A stretch of DNA of 40,864 nucleotides. Source: a virus (taxonomy: Duplodnaviria > Heunggongvirae > Uroviricota > Caudoviricetes). The notes beneath the pieces are model-generated. The model was given only the letters and a program-made list of their open reading frames with translations. It was not told the DNA's origin and did no database searches. The position numbers and the translations under genes are program-made. This document shows positions 3,670 through 31,367 of the stretch, in pieces (the stretch's first letter is position 1; each line of letters opens with the position of its first letter). The DNA is taken from IMG/VR virus record IMGVR_UViG_2565956716_000008. The stretch is one strand, 5' to 3'.

Positions 3670-4202
3670 GCGCATTTGCGTAACCCCGATAACTCGTTAA
3701 AACGTTCCATAAACATCCAGTAGGCATGGCCTGGTGACAGTGGAATAACTTTGAACATCTCTGTCGCCGGGATACCTTCCAGTACAGGCCAGAAAGAACC
3801 ATCATCAAGCCCGAGATCGCGGCGTTCGGTTGCCAGCATAATGAGATCGGCATATTTCACTGGCGTGCTCATAACAGGAGGTAACCCGTATTTCTCACGG
3901 ATTACGGCGTCTATTTTTTCTTCCATCCGTTTATAGTCAGGAAGAAGGCGTTTCAGTGGTGCGGGGATGTCCTGGCAATATGCTTCTGTTGCATCATGCA
4001 TTAACGCTTCAAAAGCAAATTCCTGCGGTACCAGCTGGCTGCAAAGCACCGCATGTTGGGCGACGCTGTAGAAGTGTGAAAGATGCCCTGCAAAGCGACA
4101 GATATTTGAAAGGGAAACCGCGATATCGTTAATCACGATGTCGTCTTTATTTATCTTGTCATAATAAAAATGCTTTCCGGAAAAAGTTTTAATAAATGAC
4201 AT
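3666..4202 (-). CDS. HD-domain phosphohydrolase (YfdR-like)
   Basis: H...HD metal-binding motifs (RFAGH, ALMHDATEAY); ATG at 4202 with GGAG RBS; track ORF 5' extension rejected. Confidence 0.6.
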   Translation of the reverse strand: MSFIKTFSGKHFYYDKINKDDIVINDIAVSLSNICRFAGHLSHFYSVAQHAVLCSQLVPQEFAFEALMHDATEAYCQDIPAPLKRLLPDYKRMEEKIDAVIREKYGLPPVMSTPVKYADLIMLATERRDLGLDDGSFWPVLEGIPATEMFKVIPLSPGHAYWMFMERFNELSGLRKCA

Positions 4203-23651: not shown

Positions 23652-24058
23652 AAATTCGTCAGGCGCAGACCAGCGCAACCTACATTCTGCCGGACCCCGG
23701 TGAACTGAATAAACGCGTCCTGATCCGCCTGCGGGTGGATATGCCCGCGGATAACTTTGGCGTGGAGCCTCAATACCCGGTTACGTTCCGGACATGGGCG
23801 AAGGTTATCCAGACCAGTGCCACCACCTGGCAGGAAACCGCGCAGACCGGGGACGCCATCACCCATTACATCACCATTCGCTACCGCCGGGGGATCACCG
23901 CTGATTATGAGGTGGTCTGCGGTGACAGTGTGTACCGGGTGAAACGTCAGCGCGATCTGAACGGGGCGCGGCGCTTTCTGCTGCTGGAGTGTACGGAGCT
24001 GGGCGAATGTAGGCAGAGTCACGGAGGCAACAATGACGACTTCCTTTTTGCACGTTGA
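23648..24058 (+). CDS. head-tail adaptor / head closure protein
   Basis: position and size. Confidence 0.45.
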   Translation: MKIRQAQTSATYILPDPGELNKRVLIRLRVDMPADNFGVEPQYPVTFRTWAKVIQTSATTWQETAQTGDAITHYITIRYRRGITADYEVVCGDSVYRVKRQRDLNGARRFLLLECTELGECRQSHGGNNDDFLFAR

Positions 24059-24539
24059 TTTTCAGCAGCCCGCGGAGATGCGCTTTAACCGCGCCCGTGT
24101 CCGGCGGGCGTTTGTCACGATTGGTCAGCGTCATATGCGTGATGCCCGTCGGCTGGTGATGCGCCGTGCGCGGTCGGCACCGGGTGAAAACCCCGGTTAT
24201 CAGACCGGACGCCTGGCTCGTTCGATTGGTTACATGGTACCCAGAGCCAGTAAACATCGCCCTGGTTTTATGGCACGTATAGCCCCTAACCAGCGTAATG
24301 GAGAGGGAAACCGCCGTATCACCGGTGATTTTTATCCGGCTTTTTTGTTCTATGGCGTGAGGCGAGGGGCAAAGCGTCGTCGCAGCCATCATCGTGGTGC
24401 ATCCGGTGGCAGCGGCTGGCGACTGGCTCCACGTAATAACTTCATGGTGGAAACGCTTGAAAAGAACCGCAGCTGGACACGCTATTTTCTGGCGCGGGAA
24501 TTGCGTAAATCACTGAAGCCGGAGCGACGACACAGATGA
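24033..24539 (+). CDS. HK97 gp10-like tail component
   Basis: position, basic composition. Confidence 0.4.
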   Translation: MTTSFLHVDFQQPAEMRFNRARVRRAFVTIGQRHMRDARRLVMRRARSAPGENPGYQTGRLARSIGYMVPRASKHRPGFMARIAPNQRNGEGNRRITGDFYPAFLFYGVRRGAKRRRSHHRGASGGSGWRLAPRNNFMVETLEKNRSWTRYFLARELRKSLKPERRHR

Positions 24540-25104: not shown

Positions 25105-25275
25105 ATGTTTGTGAAACCTGTTAAAGGGCGGTCAGTGCCTGACCCTGCCCGCGGTGACCTTTTGCCCGCCGAAGGGCGAAATGTTGACGAGAACAACTAC
25201 TGGCTGCGCCGTGAAGCAGCGGGTGATATCCGGCGCGTGAATAAAAAGGTGAACACCGATGACGATAAGCTTTAA
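25105..25275 (+). CDS. DUF2635-like small protein upstream of tail sheath (below ORF-track cutoff)
   Basis: 56-aa ORF MFVKPVKGRSVPDP...YWLRR; overlaps sheath start. Confidence 0.35.
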   Translation: MFVKPVKGRSVPDPARGDLLPAEGRNVDENNYWLRREAAGDIRRVNKKVNTDDDKL

Positions 25276-26755
25276 CACCATTCCGTCGAATACGCTGGTT
25301 CCGCTGTTTTATGCGGAAATGGATAACCAGGCGGCGAATACTGCACAGGACAGCGGAGCATCGCTGCTGATTGGTCATGCCAATAACGGTGCAGAGATTG
25401 TTGCCAACAGTCTGGTGCTGATGCCGTCGGCAGACTATGCACGCCAGATTTGTGGTGCGGGAAGTCAGCTGGCGCGTATGGTCGAGGCTTATCGCCAGAC
25501 CGACCCGTTTGGTGAACTGTATGTAATTGCCGTTCCTGAATCCACAGGCGCGGCGGCAACAGTTACGCTGACGGTGACCGGGGCAGCAACCGAAACCGGC
25601 ACGGTGAATGTTTATGTGGGACGTACCCGCGTGCAGGCACCGGTGACCAACGGCGATAACGTCGCGACGATTGCCAGCAGTATAAAAGATGCCATCAATG
25701 CCGTTCCGGCCCTGCCGTTTACGGCCTCATCTTCGGCTGGTGTGGTTACATTGACCGCTCGCCATAAGGGGCTTTGCGGGAATGAAATTCCTGTCAGCCT
25801 CAATTACTACGGCTTTGGTGGGGGCGAAGTGCTGCCAGCGGGCGTACAGATTGCCGTGGCGACGGGTACCGCCGGAACGGGTGCTCCGGTTCTCACCGGC
25901 GCGGTGGCTGCAATGGCGGATGAGCCGTTTGATTATATCGGCCTGCCGTTCAACGACACGGCCTCCGTTAACACGCTGGTGACCGAGATGAACGATACCA
26001 GCGGTCGCTGGAGCTATGCGCGTCAGCTGTATGGTCATGTGTATACGGCAAAGATCGGCACGCTGTCAGAACTGGTGAACGCAGGTGACCAGTTTAACCA
26101 GCAGCACATTACCCTGGCGGGATACGAAAAAGAGACCCAGACGCCTGCCGACGAGCTGGCGGCAAGCCGTACCGCCCGCGCAGCGGTGTTTATTCGCAAC
26201 GATCCGGCACGTCCCACGCAGACCGGTGAGCTGGTGGGTATGCTGCCTGCGCCGAAGGGGAAACGGTTCACGATGACCGAACAACAGACCCTGCTGTCTC
26301 ATGGCGTGGCAACGGCGTATGTCGAAAGCGGGGTGCTGCGCATTCAGCGTGATGTCACCACGTACAGGAAAAACGCTTACGGTGTTGCGGATAACAGCTA
26401 CCTCGACAGCGAGACGCTGCATACCAGCGCGTATGTGCTGCGCAAACTGAAATCCGTCATTACCAGTAAGTACGGGCGTCACAAGCTTGCCAGCGACGGT
26501 ACCCGCTTTGGTCCCGGTCAGGCGATTGTCACACCGGCGGTGATCAAAGGGGAACTGCTGGCAACCTACCGTCAGCTTGAGCGTGCGGGGATCGTGGAAA
26601 ACTACGAACTGTTTAAGCAGTACCTGGTTGTGGAGCGTGATGCCAGCGATCCGAACCGCCTGAACACGCTGTTCCCGCCTGACTATGTTAACCAGTTGCG
26701 TGTCTTTGCCGTGGTTAACCAGTTCCGTCTTCAGTATTCAGAGGAGTCTGCATAA
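25259..26755 (+). CDS. contractile tail sheath protein
   Basis: 498 aa, Mu/P2-type sheath character. Confidence 0.75.
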   Translation: MTISFNTIPSNTLVPLFYAEMDNQAANTAQDSGASLLIGHANNGAEIVANSLVLMPSADYARQICGAGSQLARMVEAYRQTDPFGELYVIAVPESTGAAATVTLTVTGAATETGTVNVYVGRTRVQAPVTNGDNVATIASSIKDAINAVPALPFTASSSAGVVTLTARHKGLCGNEIPVSLNYYGFGGGEVLPAGVQIAVATGTAGTGAPVLTGAVAAMADEPFDYIGLPFNDTASVNTLVTEMNDTSGRWSYARQLYGHVYTAKIGTLSELVNAGDQFNQQHITLAGYEKETQTPADELAASRTARAAVFIRNDPARPTQTGELVGMLPAPKGKRFTMTEQQTLLSHGVATAYVESGVLRIQRDVTTYRKNAYGVADNSYLDSETLHTSAYVLRKLKSVITSKYGRHKLASDGTRFGPGQAIVTPAVIKGELLATYRQLERAGIVENYELFKQYLVVERDASDPNRLNTLFPPDYVNQLRVFAVVNQFRLQYSEESA

Positions 26756-27111
26756 TGGCCCGTATCGGGGGAACCTGTTATTTCAAAATTGACGGTCAGC
26801 AGCTATCGCTGACCGGCGGCATTGAGGTGCCCATGAACAGGACGGTCAATGATGACATCATCGGCCTGGACGGTTCAGTGGACCGCAAGGAAACTCACCG
26901 TGCGCCTTATGTCAAAGGGACCTTCAAGGTGCCGAAGAATTTTCCGGTGAGCAAAATCACCTCGTCTGATGAGATGACCATCACTGCCGAGCTGGCGAAC
27001 GGTCAGGTCTATGTATTGTCGTCCGCCTGGCTGCACGGCGAAGCGAACCATAATGCCGAAGAAGGCACGGTTGATCTTGAGTTCCACGGTGAAGAAGGGG
27101 ATTACCAGTAA
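26755..27111 (+). CDS. tail tube protein
   Basis: 118 aa directly after sheath. Confidence 0.6.
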   Translation: MARIGGTCYFKIDGQQLSLTGGIEVPMNRTVNDDIIGLDGSVDRKETHRAPYVKGTFKVPKNFPVSKITSSDEMTITAELANGQVYVLSSAWLHGEANHNAEEGTVDLEFHGEEGDYQ

Positions 27112-27380
27112 TGAAAGAGCTTGAGTTAAAGAAACCGATTATCGCTCATGGTGAGACACTCTCCGTACTGGAGTTTGATGAACCCACCGGGAAGGATGTC
27201 CGCGAGCTGGGGTATCCCTACCAGATGAATCAGGATGAGTCAGTCAGACTTCTGGCGCATGTGGTGTCGAAATACATTGTGCGGCTGGCGAAAGTGCCGC
27301 AAAGCTCTGTCGACCAGATGTCTCCGGCAGACCTGAATGCAGCGGCGTGGCTTGTGGCTGGTTTTTTCCTCCAGGCCTGA
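27111..27380 (+). CDS. tail assembly chaperone (short form)
   Basis: between tube and tape measure; ends just after TTTTTTC slippery site. Confidence 0.5.
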   Translation: MKELELKKPIIAHGETLSVLEFDEPTGKDVRELGYPYQMNQDESVRLLAHVVSKYIVRLAKVPQSSVDQMSPADLNAAAWLVAGFFLQA

Positions 27381-27535
27381 CGGCTGAATACCTCACTGAT
27401 CGCTTCTTTGACTGCGCCAGCTACTGGCGCATTAATCCTTTCGAATTGCTGAATATGCCGATCAGTGAAATTCCCTTGCTGGTCAGTCAGGCAAACAGGA
27501 TAGAGCAGGAGAAACGCACACATGGCGGAATTTGA
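27347..27535 (+). CDS. -1 frame extension of tail assembly chaperone (frameshift product)
   Basis: -1 frame open from slippery heptamer T TTT TTC (27362-27368) and overlapping tape-measure start. Confidence 0.4.
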   Translation: MACGWFFPPGLTAEYLTDRFFDCASYWRINPFELLNMPISEIPLLVSQANRIEQEKRTHGGI

Positions 27536-29354
27536 GCTTAAGGCGTTGATCACCGGTGTCGACAGGCTTTCTCCCGCGCTGTCGAAAATGCAAAAGAAAA
27601 TCCGGGGATTTAAACGCCAGGCGGAAGAAGCGTCACAGGGTGGGCTGGCGCTTGGTGGCGGACTGGCAGCGGGTCTGACGCTTTCCCTGAAATCTTATGC
27701 CGATCAGGAAAACGCCGCCACCGGGCTGAAAGTCGCCATGATGGATGCGAACGGCGAGGTCGGAAAGAGCTTTCAGGACATCAATAAACTGGCTATTGGC
27801 CTGGGTAACCAGCTACCAGGTACAACGGCTGATTTCCAGAACATGATGCAGATGCTGGTGCGTCAGGGGATCCCGGCAGAAAATATTCTTGGCGGTGTGG
27901 GTAAAGCGACAGCTTATCTTGCGGTACAACTGAAAAAAACACCGGAAGCGGCTGCTGAGTTTGCTGCAAAGATGCAGGATGCTACCGGAACGGCGTCAGA
28001 AGACATGATGGGGCTGTTCGACACTATCCAGAAGGCGTTTTATCTGGGTGTTGACGATACCAACATGTTGTCCTTCTTCACTAAAACCAGCTCTGTTCTG
28101 AAGATGGTGAACAAGGACGGTCTTCAGGCTGCACAGAGCCTTGCCCCCATCAGCGTCATGATGGATCAGATGGGGATGAACGGGGAGTCGGCAGGTAACG
28201 CCCTGCGAAAAGTTATCCAGTCCGGATTAAGCGTTAAGAAAATCAGGGACGTCAATAAAATCATGGCCCGCCAGAAACTCGGGGTACAGCTCGATTTTAC
28301 TGACGGCAAAGGAAGTTTTGGCGGTCTTGATAACATGTTCAGGCAACTGGCAAAGCTGCGAAAACTGACCGACGTTAAGCGAACAGGTGTACTTAAGGCA
28401 ATATTTGGTGATGATGCCGAAACCCTTCAGGTGGTCAATGCACTAATCGATAAAGGAAAGGATGGCTACGATCAGATCCAGCAGAAGATGAATAAACAGG
28501 CCAGCCTGAATAAACGTGTTCAGGCCCAGCTTGGTACGCTGTCCAACCTGTGGGAGGCAATGACGGGGACCGCAACTAACGGCCTTGCGGCTATTGGCGG
28601 CGCATTTTCTGGTGACGCCAAAAATATCACGCAATGGCTGGGGGAGTTAGGGGAAAAATTCACGAAGTTTGCGGATGAAAATCCCCGGGTTATTCGCGGC
28701 GTCGTCGGGCTTGCTGCCGGTCTTGCGATTCTGAAACTGGGATTGATGGGCGTTGGCGGTGCCATCAGTATTGTCAGCAGGATTATGTCGATGACGCCGA
28801 TTGGCATGATTGCGACGGCGATTGCTCTGGCTGCGGGATTAATTATCACTAACTGGGATGTTGTCGGACCTTATTTCAAGAAGCTCTGGGAAACCATTGG
28901 TCCTTATTTTGAGGCAGGTTGGGAACTTCTGAAGAAGGTTTTTGCCTGGTCGCCGCTGGGGATGGTGATCAATAACTGGGGACCGGTTGTTAAGTGGTTT
29001 CAGGATATGTGGGACAAGCTGAAGCCAATTATTGAGTGGTTTACCGACAGTTCCGGTGACACGGTCGATGCCATTAACTCTGCGCAGTGGGGCGCGGGTG
29101 CTTATGATGCTTATGGGACGGGAATACCGGCGCGGGGATACACACCTTATCCGGCGGTGGATCCGGCTCAGTCAAACAACGCCTCCGATGCCACAGGCTC
29201 GAATCCCTTCATGATTAACAAAGCTTCTGTGCCAAAAGTTGATGGTGAGATCAAGGTCTCTTTTGTGAATTCGCCTCCGGGTATGCGGGTTATGGAAACG
29301 CGATCCAGCGGTTTTGATGTCAGCCATGATGTTGGCTATACGCGGTTCAGGTAG
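27522..29354 (+). CDS. tail tape measure protein
   Basis: 610 aa, helical/Gly-rich segments, position. Confidence 0.75.
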   Translation: MAEFELKALITGVDRLSPALSKMQKKIRGFKRQAEEASQGGLALGGGLAAGLTLSLKSYADQENAATGLKVAMMDANGEVGKSFQDINKLAIGLGNQLPGTTADFQNMMQMLVRQGIPAENILGGVGKATAYLAVQLKKTPEAAAEFAAKMQDATGTASEDMMGLFDTIQKAFYLGVDDTNMLSFFTKTSSVLKMVNKDGLQAAQSLAPISVMMDQMGMNGESAGNALRKVIQSGLSVKKIRDVNKIMARQKLGVQLDFTDGKGSFGGLDNMFRQLAKLRKLTDVKRTGVLKAIFGDDAETLQVVNALIDKGKDGYDQIQQKMNKQASLNKRVQAQLGTLSNLWEAMTGTATNGLAAIGGAFSGDAKNITQWLGELGEKFTKFADENPRVIRGVVGLAAGLAILKLGLMGVGGAISIVSRIMSMTPIGMIATAIALAAGLIITNWDVVGPYFKKLWETIGPYFEAGWELLKKVFAWSPLGMVINNWGPVVKWFQDMWDKLKPIIEWFTDSSGDTVDAINSAQWGAGAYDAYGTGIPARGYTPYPAVDPAQSNNASDATGSNPFMINKASVPKVDGEIKVSFVNSPPGMRVMETRSSGFDVSHDVGYTRFR

Positions 29355-29453
29355 TGTACAAAATGATTAATGTGTTTTTGTCTGGCATAATTTGGGTTTT
29401 CAGCTTTAAGTAGTTAATATAATCATTCCTTACAAATGATTGAAGGGATGATT

Positions 29454-29948
29454 ATGCGTATCTTTGTTTTTTTTATATCTGCACTTTTATCTTTTAACTT
29501 GGCTGCGGAAGAGTGTAAGTTCAGCTTTAATGAGTCAGAATTAATCTCTTCTATAGGTATTGCACCAGTTAAGCAAGAGATAATAAAGGATGAAGGAATA
29601 ACTAAGCGGCAATATGAATTCAGAAGAGAATTATCTTCTGAAGAAATGCTTAGTGATGACGCTGATGAAAAATATGAGCCGCAGTTTTATATATCTGTTT
29701 ATAATCCATCATGCCCACAAAAGGTTATTGTTTGGTTTTTCAAAGACAATAAAAACACAATGGATTTAAGTAATGAGGTCCTTGCTGGTAGAGCGTTCAA
29801 GTATTTAACTGGTGTTAATGAAAGTATTTTTGAAAATAAAATGAAAAAGTTTTTAAAGGTACAGTCATTTGAATCTTTTGATGAAAGGACAGATTCTAAA
29901 TTTATAAAGAGTGGTAATATTTATTCCATTGATGTTCAACTCAGATAG
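29454..29948 (+). CDS. secreted small protein of unknown function (tail-region moron)
   Basis: AT-rich; signal peptide MRIFVFFISALLSFNLAA then EE; own TATAAT (29418-29423) and terminator; two Cys. Confidence 0.5.
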   Translation: MRIFVFFISALLSFNLAAEECKFSFNESELISSIGIAPVKQEIIKDEGITKRQYEFRRELSSEEMLSDDADEKYEPQFYISVYNPSCPQKVIVWFFKDNKNTMDLSNEVLAGRAFKYLTGVNESIFENKMKKFLKVQSFESFDERTDSKFIKSGNIYSIDVQLR

Positions 29949-30038: not shown

Positions 30039-31367
30039 ATGACGTGGAAAGACAGGCTTCAGGATGCGTCATTTCGCGGCGTACCGTTTAAGGTTGAAGA
30101 AGAAAGTGCGGGAACCGGTCGCCGTGTGGAAACACACGAATATCCGAACCGCGACAAGCCCTATACCGAAGATCTGGGAAAAGTCACTTTCCGCCCGTCC
30201 ATCACAGCTTATGTGGTGGGAGATGACTGCTTTGACCAGCGCGATCGCCTGATTGAAGCGCTGAATAAACCCGGTCCCGGCACGCTTGTCCACCCGACAT
30301 ATGGTGAGCTGAAAGTCTGTGTTGACGGGGAAGTTCGGGTCAGCACATCGAAAAGTGAAGGGCGTATTGTCCGCTTTGACCTGAAGTTTGTCGAAGCAGG
30401 AGAACTCTCTTACCCCACATCAGGTGCGGCGACGGCGCAGACGCTGATGTCATCCTGTTCTGCACTGGATGACTGCATCAGTGACAGCTTCAGCGGTTTC
30501 AGTATCGATGGTGTGGCGGATTTTGTGCAGAACGACGTTATCGGTAATGCCAGCATAATGCTGGGGTATGTTTCTGATGCGATGAAAGTGGTGGATTCTG
30601 CCGTATCGGATGCCGCCAGGCTGTTGCAGGGGGATATCTCGGTACTTCTGCCGCCGCCATCGTCAGGCAAAAATTTCGTTGAGCAGGTGCAGAAAATGTG
30701 GCGTACCGGGAAACGCCTTTATGGTAACGCCAGCGACCTGGTCACCATGATCAAAACGCTTTCCGGTGTCAGCCTCGGCAGCGATCTGCAACCGCGCGGC
30801 GTCTGGAAAACGGACAGTAAAACCACCGCCACGGCGACGCAGCAGCGTAACGTGGTTGCCAGCACCCTTCGTACGACCGCAATCAGCGAAGCGGCGTATG
30901 CCGTCACCCGATTGCCTGCGCCAACAACTTCCGCGGTGATGCAGAATTCCGCAGTGGGGCAGGCAACAACACCTGCGCAGAGCACTGGCTGGCCTTCCGT
31001 CACGCATCCGGCACTGAACAATGCACCGGCGGTGAAAAACACAGTTGACCTGCCGACGTGGGAAGAACTGACTGACATTCGCGACACACTGAATACGGCA
31101 ATTGATAAGGAGTTGTCCCGTACAACCAGTGATGCGCTGTTTCTGGCGCTGCGCCGGGTGAAAGCAGATCTGAATGCGGATATCAACACGCGCCTTGAAC
31201 AGTCTGCACGGATCATTCAGCGCACACCGGATGAGGTTTTACCCGCGCTGGTGCTGGCGGCGACCTGGTTTGATAACGCGGCGCGTGACGCGGACATTAT
31301 CCGGCGTAATGCCATTACGCATCCCGGCTTTGTGCCGGTGATCCCTCTGAAGGTGCCAGTGCAATGA
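30039..31367 (+). CDS. DNA circularisation protein (Mu gp43-like)
   Basis: N-terminal WKDRLQDASFRGVPF...HEYPNRD...EDLG signature. Confidence 0.6.
   Translation: MTWKDRLQDASFRGVPFKVEEESAGTGRRVETHEYPNRDKPYTEDLGKVTFRPSITAYVVGDDCFDQRDRLIEALNKPGPGTLVHPTYGELKVCVDGEVRVSTSKSEGRIVRFDLKFVEAGELSYPTSGAATAQTLMSSCSALDDCISDSFSGFSIDGVADFVQNDVIGNASIMLGYVSDAMKVVDSAVSDAARLLQGDISVLLPPPSSGKNFVEQVQKMWRTGKRLYGNASDLVTMIKTLSGVSLGSDLQPRGVWKTDSKTTATATQQRNVVASTLRTTAISEAAYAVTRLPAPTTSAVMQNSAVGQATTPAQSTGWPSVTHPALNNAPAVKNTVDLPTWEELTDIRDTLNTAIDKELSRTTSDALFLALRRVKADLNADINTRLEQSARIIQRTPDEVLPALVLAATWFDNAARDADIIRRNAITHPGFVPVIPLKVPVQ

What the first reader, a model, noticed from the sequence alone, without database searches (positions are those of the whole stretch)
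27111..27535. Programmed -1 frameshift in the tail assembly chaperone
The chaperone ORF ends at 27380 just after the slippery heptamer T TTT TTC (27362-27368). The -1 frame is open from there to 27535 and overlaps the tape-measure start. This reproduces the conserved G/GT-type frameshift found upstream of tape-measure genes and supports the tail-module annotation.
Basis: partly seen in the sequence, partly recalled or inferred. Interest (0 to 1): 0.35.

Follow-up and report, generated by a model that had tools for sequence, protein, structure and literature searches.

The report
Tail chaperone -1 frameshift, P2 E/E+E' type

Summary
Observation confirmed. The 89-aa chaperone ORF (27111-27380; Pfam PF10109, E=2e-15) contains T_TTT_TTC at 27362-27368 in the X_XXY_YYZ phase. 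The -1 frame is open to 27535 and overlaps the tape-measure ATG (27522) by 14 nt. The predicted fusion is 141 aa.

Comparative evidence is strong. In 28 distinct loci analysed in detail (window, 20 genome loci, 7 phages; chaperone identity down to about 35%), the codons are always NNT TTT TT[C/T/G]. This holds even where only 5-12% of third codon positions in the gene are T. A 50-64-codon -1 extension always ends at the tape-measure start.

The extension is conserved as protein: pairwise differences at -1-frame codon positions 1/2/3 are 484/286/1183. It usually has no start codon of its own. A profile of the fusions matches P2 E+E' over both parts (hhalign 96%, E=4e-9), with the slip site at the same GF[F/L] motif.

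This is therefore a member of the experimentally proven P2 E/E+E' class, sitting in an otherwise Mu-like tail module; Mu itself uses -2. No downstream stimulatory structure is conserved, so low efficiency is expected. GenBank, RefSeq and PHROGs do not annotate the fusion.

Interest is low. One unexplained side observation is a sequence-constrained 8-bp hairpin 44 nt downstream.

The parts
26755..27111 (+). Tail tube gene (118 aa), immediately upstream. Its stop overlaps the chaperone ATG by 1 nt.
   Evidence: Pfam PF10618 Tail_tube, E=2.4e-33. Annotated as tail tube protein Mup40/M in phage 689R6.
27111..27380 (+). Tail assembly chaperone ORF in frame 0 (89 aa), the counterpart of P2 gpE and lambda gpG.
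   Evidence: Pfam PF10109 Phage_TAC_7, E=2.4e-15, 56.7 bits against a cut-off of 25. phrog_166 'tail protein', E=4e-23. The C-terminal F85 F86 are nearly invariant in 45 family representatives.
27362..27368 (+). Slippery heptamer T_TTT_TTC (codons ggT TTT TTC = Gly-Phe-Phe), the site of the tandem tRNA-Phe -1 slip.
   Evidence: Phase checked. NNT TTT TT[C/T/G] is invariant in 28 loci and in P2, although the residue before it varies (G/S/R/N/P/D) and T-ending codons fall to 5-12% of third positions in the high-GC hosts. The 11 nt GGTTTTTTCCT are invariant in 12 loci while flanking synonymous sites vary.
27368..27535 (+). Extension in the -1 frame (55 codons plus stop), the counterpart of P2 E' and lambda T. 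It is reachable only from the chaperone ORF.
   Evidence: Open frame. The motif FDxAxYWRxNPxExLxxP......QAxRI is conserved across lineages. Pairwise differences at -1-frame codon positions 1/2/3 are 484/286/1183. In 14 of 22 loci no ATG/GTG/TTG exists in this frame from where it opens to 15 codons past the slip, and no start has a Shine-Dalgarno sequence (SD, ribosome-binding site). tblastn with the fusion gives two pieces in two frames in 23 of 30 phage records. phrog_32181, E=4e-41.
27507..27511 (+). AGGAG Shine-Dalgarno sequence for the tape-measure gene, 10 nt before its ATG and embedded in the end of the -1 extension.
   Evidence: Read from the sequence. CAGGAGAA is conserved in close relatives. 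Third-position diversity dips locally at 27487-27511.
27522..29354 (+). Tape-measure protein gene (610 aa). Its start overlaps the end of the -1 extension by 14 nt.
   Evidence: Pfam PF10145 PhageMin_Tail, E=1.3e-26. In all relatives the -1 ORF ends within -1 to +25 nt of the tape-measure start, apart from one locus where the start call was uncertain.
27413..27431 (+). Hairpin of 8 bp, TGCGCCAG-CTA-CTGGCGCA, inside the -1 extension. It is constrained at the sequence level in the enterobacterial clade; its role is unknown and its link to the frameshift is unproven.
   Evidence: Lowest third-position diversity of about 1190 sliding windows (0.19 against gene means of 0.40-0.57). Variation is confined to the loop. 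Predicted in the minimum-free-energy folds. Absent in distant lineages. No Rfam hit.

Best explanation
Ribosomes translating the 89-aa tail assembly chaperone reach GGU UUU UUC. With tRNA-Phe on UUU in the P site and on UUC in the A site, a minority slip one base back onto U UUU UU. They then continue in the -1 frame from 27368 and stop at 27533-27535. This yields a 141-aa fusion: residues 1-86 of the chaperone plus a 55-residue E'/T-like domain. Most ribosomes instead stop at 27378-27380 and make the 89-aa protein. By analogy with lambda gpG/gpGT and P2 gpE/gpE+E', the shared N-terminal domain coats the tape-measure protein, and the rare C-terminal domain recruits the tail tube protein. The fixed ratio of the two products then drives tube and sheath polymerisation to the length set by the tape measure, and neither protein ends up in the virion. 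What is shown here: the sequence architecture, its phase, its conservation at the nucleotide level, the protein-level conservation of the -1 ORF, and homology to P2 E+E'. What is inferred: that the slip is ribosomal, its efficiency (probably a few percent, because no stimulator is conserved), and the assembly role.
For: The phase and the open frame are confirmed. Such an arrangement is rare: 2 of 35 in-phase heptamers in the window have a long -1 extension. In the genome scan, 22 of 23 loci at 38-100% identity keep an in-phase TTTTTT[C/T] and a 50-61-codon -1 ORF ending at the tape-measure start; the only exception is a pseudogene. Seven further phages show the same (SfIV, ST64B, phiP27, BgVeeders33, DVM-2008, PG1, PBb002). 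The codons are always NNT TTT TTN, even in Derxia (GC3, the G+C share of third codon positions, 92%; T-ending codons 5%) and in Pseudomonas and Burkholderia phages (GC3 84-89%). The preceding residue varies while its third base stays T, which is the signature of X_XXY_YYZ rather than of a mere T run. The T-only region shows three-base periodicity in the -1 frame. The T ORF usually has no start codon. hhalign of the fusion profile against P2 E+E' gives 96% probability, E=3.7e-9, over 122 columns spanning both parts, with GF[F/L] aligned. P2 is annotated with a -1 shift at T_TTT_TTG, giving 91-aa and 142-aa products, with the tape-measure gene overlapping by 8 nt (PMC3091744, citing Christie 2002 and Xu 2004). 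In E. coli, U_UU.Y ranks second among -1-prone tetramers (PMC4066793).
Against: There is no direct evidence of the fusion protein, and no measurement of efficiency. No downstream stimulatory structure and no upstream SD-like element is conserved: z is about 0 for the 45 nt after the heptamer in 21 of 23 loci. This fits P2 but leaves the efficiency unknown. One relative, Paraburkholderia phage IPK (an UNVERIFIED record), has GGC TTC TTC and no obvious slip site, so the heptamer is not universal. The T part alone does not reach Pfam PF06528.
Confidence: 0.93

Rival explanations
1. The shift arises from transcriptional slippage. RNA polymerase stutters on the T6 run and makes a fraction of mRNAs with one U fewer or two more, so the fusion is read by standard translation.
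For: The site is a homopolymer run: T6 here, and T7 in SfIV, ST64B, phiP27 and L098. UUUUUUU is noted as prone to transcriptional slippage (PMC4066793). Assemblies show indel noise at this run (P0001-P0006).
Against: Efficient slippage in bacteria generally needs runs of about 8-9 or more (established knowledge), whereas most lineages keep exactly T6. What is conserved is the in-phase NNT TTT TTN arrangement: the preceding codon's third base is always T while the last base may be C, T or G. That pattern fits tandem tRNA re-pairing and is not needed for polymerase stuttering. The homologous P2 site is documented as a translational frameshift (PMC3091744).
Confidence: 0.04
2. The -1 ORF is an independent small gene (62 aa, starting at GTG 27347), as annotated in phage 689R6 and grouped as phrog_32181. 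It would be translated from its own start.
For: A GTG exists at 27347. One GenBank record and several RefSeq or NCBI entries call it a separate hypothetical protein.
Against: No SD precedes the GTG. In 14 of 22 related loci there is no ATG/GTG/TTG anywhere in the frame before the conserved domain, and the starts that do occur are not conserved in type. In several relatives the frame opens only 7-12 codons before the slip site. Conservation of the heptamer would be left unexplained.
Confidence: 0.02
3. The arrangement is a coincidence. The heptamer is only the by-product of a conserved Gly-Phe-Phe motif, and 27381-27521 is a non-coding spacer.
For: FF is nearly invariant at the protein level in the family, so some T richness is expected there.
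Against: Only 2 of the 16 synonymous spellings of G-F-F are slippery, yet every lineage uses one of them, against strong GC3 bias. The supposed spacer evolves with -1-frame codon periodicity and has a conserved amino-acid motif homologous to P2 E'.
Confidence: 0.01

Closest known systems
Bacteriophage P2 gpE / gpE+E' (FETUD tail operon; -1 frameshift at T_TTT_TTG; Christie et al. 2002, Xu et al. 2004)
   Same: Both belong to contractile-tail phages. The gene sits between the tube gene and the tape-measure gene. Product sizes are almost the same (91/142 aa in P2, 89/141 aa here). The slip heptamer is NNT TTT TTN at the homologous GF[F/L] motif near the C-terminus. The extension ends in an overlap with the tape-measure start (8 nt in P2, 14 nt here). 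Neither has a downstream hairpin. Profile homology covers both the E and E' parts (hhalign 96%, E=3.7e-9; PMC3091744).
   Different: The last base of the heptamer is C here, so the A-site codon is Phe UUC rather than Leu UUG. Pairwise sequence identity is only about 21%. The E' part does not reach the Pfam PF06528 threshold. The surrounding sheath, tube, tape-measure and baseplate genes are Mu-like, not P2-like.
Bacteriophage lambda gpG / gpGT (-1 frameshift at G_GGA_AAG; Levin et al. 1993; Xu et al. 2013, 2014)
   Same: The genomic position (major tail gene, then chaperone, then tape measure) and the logic are the same: an abundant short product and a rare extended product made from one start. 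It is the presumed mechanistic model for the roles of the two products (PMC5009743).
   Different: Lambda has a non-contractile tail and a different slippery heptamer and tRNAs (Gly/Lys). No sequence similarity was detected here, and the lambda proteins belong to other Pfam families.
Bacteriophage Mu gp41 (chaperone upstream of tape measure gp42; -2 frameshift)
   Same: The neighbouring genes are homologous: sheath L/Mup39, tube M/Mup40, tape measure Mup42, DNA circulation Mup43. A T-like peptide lies downstream in another frame.
   Different: Mu shifts by -2 (equivalent to +1), not -1 (PMC2628397, PMC5009743; frames seen). Mu gp41 is 144 aa and has no GFF/T6 site. hhalign of the fusion profile against the Mu fusion gives only 5% probability, E=0.008, confined to the T part.

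Membership tests
Conserved G/GT-type tail-chaperone frameshift (Xu, Hendrix and Duda 2004) | The gene pair lies between the major tail or tube gene and the tape-measure gene. | tested here: met
   Tube 26755-27111 (PF10618), chaperone 27111-27380 (PF10109), tape measure 27522-29354 (PF10145).
Conserved G/GT-type tail-chaperone frameshift (Xu, Hendrix and Duda 2004) | A second ORF overlaps the 3' end of the first in another frame, has no start of its own, and ends near the tape-measure start. | tested here: met
   The -1 frame is open 27239-27535. No conserved start and no SD. The end overlaps the tape-measure ATG here and in relatives.
Conserved G/GT-type tail-chaperone frameshift (Xu, Hendrix and Duda 2004) | A slippery sequence lies in the correct phase within the overlap and is conserved among relatives. 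| tested here: met
   T_TTT_TTC in phase. NNT TTT TTN in 28 of 28 intact loci analysed, and in P2.
Conserved G/GT-type tail-chaperone frameshift (Xu, Hendrix and Duda 2004) | Both the short and the frameshifted product are made, at a low fixed ratio, and both are needed for tail assembly. | not testable with these tools
   This needs proteomics, a reporter assay or genetics. Only indirect evidence is available: purifying selection on the -1 ORF.
P2 gpE / gpE+E' family (Pfam PF10109 Phage_TAC_7 for the E-like part) | The N-terminal domain matches the family profile above the curated threshold. | tested here: met
   PF10109 at 56.7 bits against a cut-off of 25, E=2.4e-15. All 15 fusion sequences match.
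P2 gpE / gpE+E' family | Homology to P2 E+E' covers both domains, with the shift site at the equivalent position. | tested here: met
   hhalign 96.1%, E=3.7e-9, 122 aligned columns. GFF aligns with GFL and YWRINPFEL with FHWPPSEL.
Pfam PF06528 Phage_P2_GpE (the E' part) | The C-terminal extension matches the PF06528 profile. | tested here: not met
   No hit for the window's T peptide or fusion at E<=0.01. Only 1 of 15 relatives matches, at E=0.064. The relation to E' is therefore remote, seen at profile-profile level only.
Mu gp41-type (-2) chaperone frameshift | The shift is into the +1/-2 frame, with homology to Mu gp41. | tested here: not met
   The +1 frame closes at 27385. hhalign against the Mu gp41 fusion gives 4.9% probability.

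The most novel reading that the evidence does not exclude
The clade-specific, sequence-invariant 8-bp hairpin at 27413-27431 may be a functional element. It lies in the stretch translated only by the frameshifted minority of ribosomes, 32 nt after the chaperone stop. One possibility is an mRNA 3'-end stabiliser or processing site that sets the ratio between the abundant sheath/tube/chaperone message and the scarce tape-measure/baseplate message. Another is a distant modulator of frameshift efficiency. Either would be a regulatory layer not described for P2/Mu-type tail operons.
Probability: 0.15. Interest if true: 0.4.

Novelty: new member of a known kind. Interest (0 to 1): 0.15.

Why it matters
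The main value is for annotation. The module occurs in 918 of 5426 complete E. coli genomes. In those, and in the reference records of SfV, SfII, SfI, SfIV, ST64B and phiP27, only the 89-aa product is annotated. The 141-nt stretch after it is left blank, or is called a separate hypothetical protein (phrog_32181, 'unknown function'). Recognising it as the E' part of a frameshift fusion removes a spurious orphan family and restores an essential tail gene product. It also shows that a Mu-like tail module can carry the P2-type (-1, T6N) chaperone cassette rather than the Mu-type (-2) one, a small example of mosaicism within the tail operon. It does not change the understanding of frameshifting or of tail assembly.

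Tried and rejected
(1) A tube-protein scan of viral contigs returned 80 loci that were all 100% identical in the tube protein, so they were useless for divergence.
(2) Alignments A2 and A3 of distant chaperones were too diverse for the locus finder. A closer alignment, A4, worked.
(3) A protein search with the T peptide found only 10 close hits, because such short ORFs are rarely called.
(4) The apparent full-length 'fusion' proteins in the database (P0001-P0006) are indel or assembly artefacts, not annotated fusions.
(5) Downstream stimulatory RNA structure: only a weak 4-bp hairpin 5 nt after the heptamer. The 45-nt segment has z=-0.26, and nothing is conserved across lineages. A long-range stem (27392-27402 with 27459-27468; z=-3.8 for 132 nt) is not supported by covariation in L087 and L090.
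(6) No upstream SD-like stimulator is conserved (read).
(7) There are no Rfam hits.
(8) No solved structure is found by sequence. The AlphaFold model of the chaperone had pLDDT 64, so no fold search was run.
(9) The SfV genome paper and Christie 2002 are not held, so I could not check whether Xu et al. 2004 already list SfV, ST64B or phiP27.
(10) The frameshift mutation in an ST64B tail gene reported in the literature is a different, non-programmed defect in another gene.

Full report
**Identity of the window.** The region is 99-99.6% identical in DNA to Escherichia phage vB_EcoM-689R6 and to the Shigella serotype-converting phages SfII, SfV and SfI. It is 100% identical over 27100-27560 to a prophage in E. 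coli F9792. The plus-strand genes around the finding form a contractile-tail module:
- sheath, 25259-26755 (PF04984, PF17482, PF17481);
- tube, 26755-27111 (PF10618);
- an 89-aa ORF, 27111-27380 (PF10109, 'Phage tail assembly chaperone proteins, E, or 41 or 14'; E=2.4e-15);
- tape measure, 27522-29354 (PF10145);
- a DNA-circulation protein, 30039-31367 (PF07157).

Depositors label the neighbours as Mu L, M and Mup42 homologues.

**Checking the observation.** The ORF ends ...GCT GGT TTT TTC CTC CAG GCC TGA. TTTTTTC occupies 27362-27368, and 27362 is a third codon position, so the phase is X_XXY_YYZ. The -1 frame is open from 27239 to the stop at 27533-27535. The +1 frame closes at 27385. The tape-measure ATG at 27522 lies in the chaperone's own frame and overlaps the -1 ORF by 14 nt. 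Reading 27111..27368 and then 27368..27535 gives a 141-aa protein.

**Chance.** In a crude set of 51 long ORFs (100 codons or more) in the window there are 35 in-phase X_XXY_YYZ heptamers in 12,057 codon positions. Their -1 extensions are mostly under 20 codons, and only two reach 55 codons or more. None lies in the last 10 codons of its gene.

**Comparative test of the slip site.** A scan of one genome per species returned 23 loci with 38-100% chaperone identity. They range from Shigella, Edwardsiella, Citrobacter, Pantoea and Erwinia to Methylotenera, Derxia and Sutterella. Twenty-two of them have an in-phase TTTTTT[C/T] at the equivalent position, followed by 50-61 open -1 codons that end at, or a few bases into, the next long ORF, the tape measure. 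The single exception is a truncated pseudogene in the symbiont Serratia symbiotica. Seven more phages behave the same way: SfIV, ST64B and phiP27 (T_TTT_TTT), Burkholderia BgVeeders33 and Pseudomonas DVM-2008 (T_TTT_TTC), and Stutzerimonas PG1 and Bordetella PBb002 (T_TTT_TTG).

**Codon evidence.** The spelling is always NNT TTT TTN, even where the gene's third positions are 84-92% G+C and only 5-12% T. The residue before the Phe pair varies (G, S, R, N, P, D) while its third base stays T. That pattern is what tandem tRNA re-pairing requires. Neither the conserved FF protein motif nor a simple homopolymer requirement would produce it.

**Is the -1 ORF coding?** Across 11-12 enterobacterial loci, the part of the extension that lies beyond the frame-0 stop shows pairwise differences of 484, 286 and 1183 at -1-frame codon positions 1, 2 and 3. 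This is the same pattern as in the chaperone itself, 200, 130 and 734. Its translation keeps the motif F-D-x-A-x-[YF]-W-[RK]-x-x-P-x-E-x-L...Q-A-x-R-I in all lineages. In 14 of 22 distinct loci the frame holds no ATG, GTG or TTG from the point where it opens to 15 codons past the slip, and none of the starts that do occur has a Shine-Dalgarno sequence. The domain can therefore only be reached from the chaperone's start.

**Relation to known systems.**
- *P2.* A profile of 15 predicted fusions aligns with P2 gpE+E' over 122 columns spanning both halves (hhalign probability 96%, E=3.7e-9). GFF aligns with P2's GFL, and YWRINPFEL with FHWPPSEL. P2 is annotated with a -1 shift at GGT TTT TTG, products of 91 and 142 aa, and an 8-nt overlap with the tape-measure gene T. 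The literature describes this as an established programmed frameshift with no downstream hairpin (PMC3091744, citing Christie 2002 and Xu 2004).
- *Mu.* Mu gp41 uses a -2 shift (PMC2628397, PMC5009743). It aligns only marginally with the fusion profile (5% probability).
- *Conclusion.* The window carries a P2-type chaperone cassette inside a Mu-like tail module.
- *Pfam E' family.* The T part alone does not reach PF06528, so membership at that level fails and the relation is remote.

**Mechanism.** tRNA-Phe occupies UUU in the P site and UUC in the A site, and both can re-pair with UUU one base upstream. In E. coli, U_UU.Y is the second most shift-prone tetramer class (PMC4066793). I found no conserved stimulator. 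The 45 nt after the heptamer fold no better than shuffles in 21 of 23 loci, P2 included. The position of the frame-0 stop varies from 3 to about 21 codons after the heptamer, and no SD-like element is conserved upstream. A low efficiency of a few percent is therefore the expectation, as in lambda (about 1 in 30) and two- to three-fold higher in P2 (PMC5009743). This value is inferred, not measured. The assembly role is taken from the lambda model (PMC5009743): the shared domain binds the tape measure, and the rare extension recruits the tube protein.

**Rival explanations.**
- Transcriptional slippage on T6 is unlikely, given the run length and the phase-specific conservation. It cannot be excluded as a minor contributor.
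- Independent initiation at GTG 27347, as annotated in phage 689R6, is contradicted.
- Coincidence is contradicted.

**Annotation status.** None of the phage records examined joins the two ORFs: SfV, SfII, 689R6, SfIV, ST64B, phiP27, BgVeeders33, DVM-2008, PG1 and PBb002. RefSeq (PGAP) annotates only the 89-aa protein in E. coli, where the module is present in 918 of 5426 complete genomes. PHROGs holds the T ORF as a separate family of unknown function. I could not obtain Xu et al. 2004 or the SfV genome paper to see whether these phages were already listed there.

**Side observations.**
- *A constrained hairpin.* An 8-bp hairpin, TGCGCCAG-CTA-CTGGCGCA (27413-27431), lies 44 nt beyond the heptamer. 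Its 8-codon windows have the lowest third-position diversity of about 1190 windows across 3.6 kb of the module, 0.19 against gene means of 0.40-0.57. The slip-site region ranks close behind (0.22), level with one tape-measure window. All four synonymous stem positions are invariant, and variation is confined to the loop. The hairpin is lost in more distant lineages, so no covariation test is possible and it is not required for the frameshift architecture. Its role is unexplained.
- *A cargo gene.* An AT-rich ORF (30-32% G+C; 29436-29948) sits between the tape-measure and DNA-circulation genes. Among phage records it is shared only with phage SKA5.
- *Other items* are listed under 'noticed in passing'.

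**Verdict.** The feature is an ordinary, unannotated member of the P2 E/E+E' class of tail-chaperone frameshifts. Interest is low.

Noticed in passing
window 27413-27431 (+): An 8-bp GC-rich hairpin, TGCGCCAG-CTA-CTGGCGCA, lies inside the -1 extension, 44 nt after the slip site. It has the lowest synonymous-site diversity in 3.6 kb of the tail module across 11 enterobacterial loci. The stem is invariant and only the loop varies. It is absent in distant lineages. It is too far from the heptamer to be a classical frameshift stimulator, and its function is unknown.
   Followed up: partly
window 29436-29948 (+): An AT-rich ORF of 170 aa (30-32% G+C against 50-55% in the flanks) with a hydrophobic N-terminus is inserted between the tape-measure and DNA-circulation genes. 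It has no Pfam hit and matches phrog_8976 (unknown function). Among 50,697 phage records only Escherichia phage SKA5 has it. It is probably a moron or cargo gene.
   Followed up: partly
window 27527: The window and E. coli F9792 have G where SfV, SfII, SfI and 689R6 have T. The change is synonymous in tape-measure codon 2 (GCT to GCG), but it removes the T-frame TGA. The fusion is therefore 141 aa here and 139 aa in those phages.
   Followed up: yes
L111 (Paraburkholderia phage IPK, PV588664.1), about 1440-1700: This chaperone homologue spells GFF as GGC TTC TTC, with no slippery run. The T-like ORF in the -1 frame opens only 3 codons before the chaperone stop. Either another shift site is used (possibly G_GGC next to the stop) or this UNVERIFIED record contains a sequence error.
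   Followed up: partly
proteins P0141, P0146, P0156, P0157, P0182, P0212, P0217: Some distant family representatives (174-221 aa) are tandem duplications of the chaperone domain. Both copies end in an FF-containing motif (GFFLG and similar). Their DNA context and frameshift status were not examined.
   Followed up: no
proteins P0001-P0006: Singleton database proteins of 107-139 aa look like in-frame chaperone-T fusions. They differ from the window by local frame hops around the T run and elsewhere, so they are most likely homopolymer or assembly indels rather than natural fused genes.
   Followed up: partly
L101 (Serratia symbiotica JAMDYG010000001.1): The chaperone homologue is interrupted by an early stop and has no slip site or extension. 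It looks like a decaying prophage in a reduced symbiont genome.
   Followed up: no
window 24033-24539 (+), codon 103: Another in-phase T_TTT_TTG heptamer lies in a 168-aa ORF upstream of the sheath gene, followed by 29 open -1 codons. It is internal to the gene and was not examined further. It is probably a chance occurrence.
   Followed up: no
L116 (phage Mu NC_000929) 3900-4140: In Mu, the T-like peptide (…GPEWALSLPLSRFFRHCQQAKTL…) lies in the +1/-2 frame after gp41. This agrees with the published -2 shift, but the RefSeq record annotates only gp41.
   Followed up: partly
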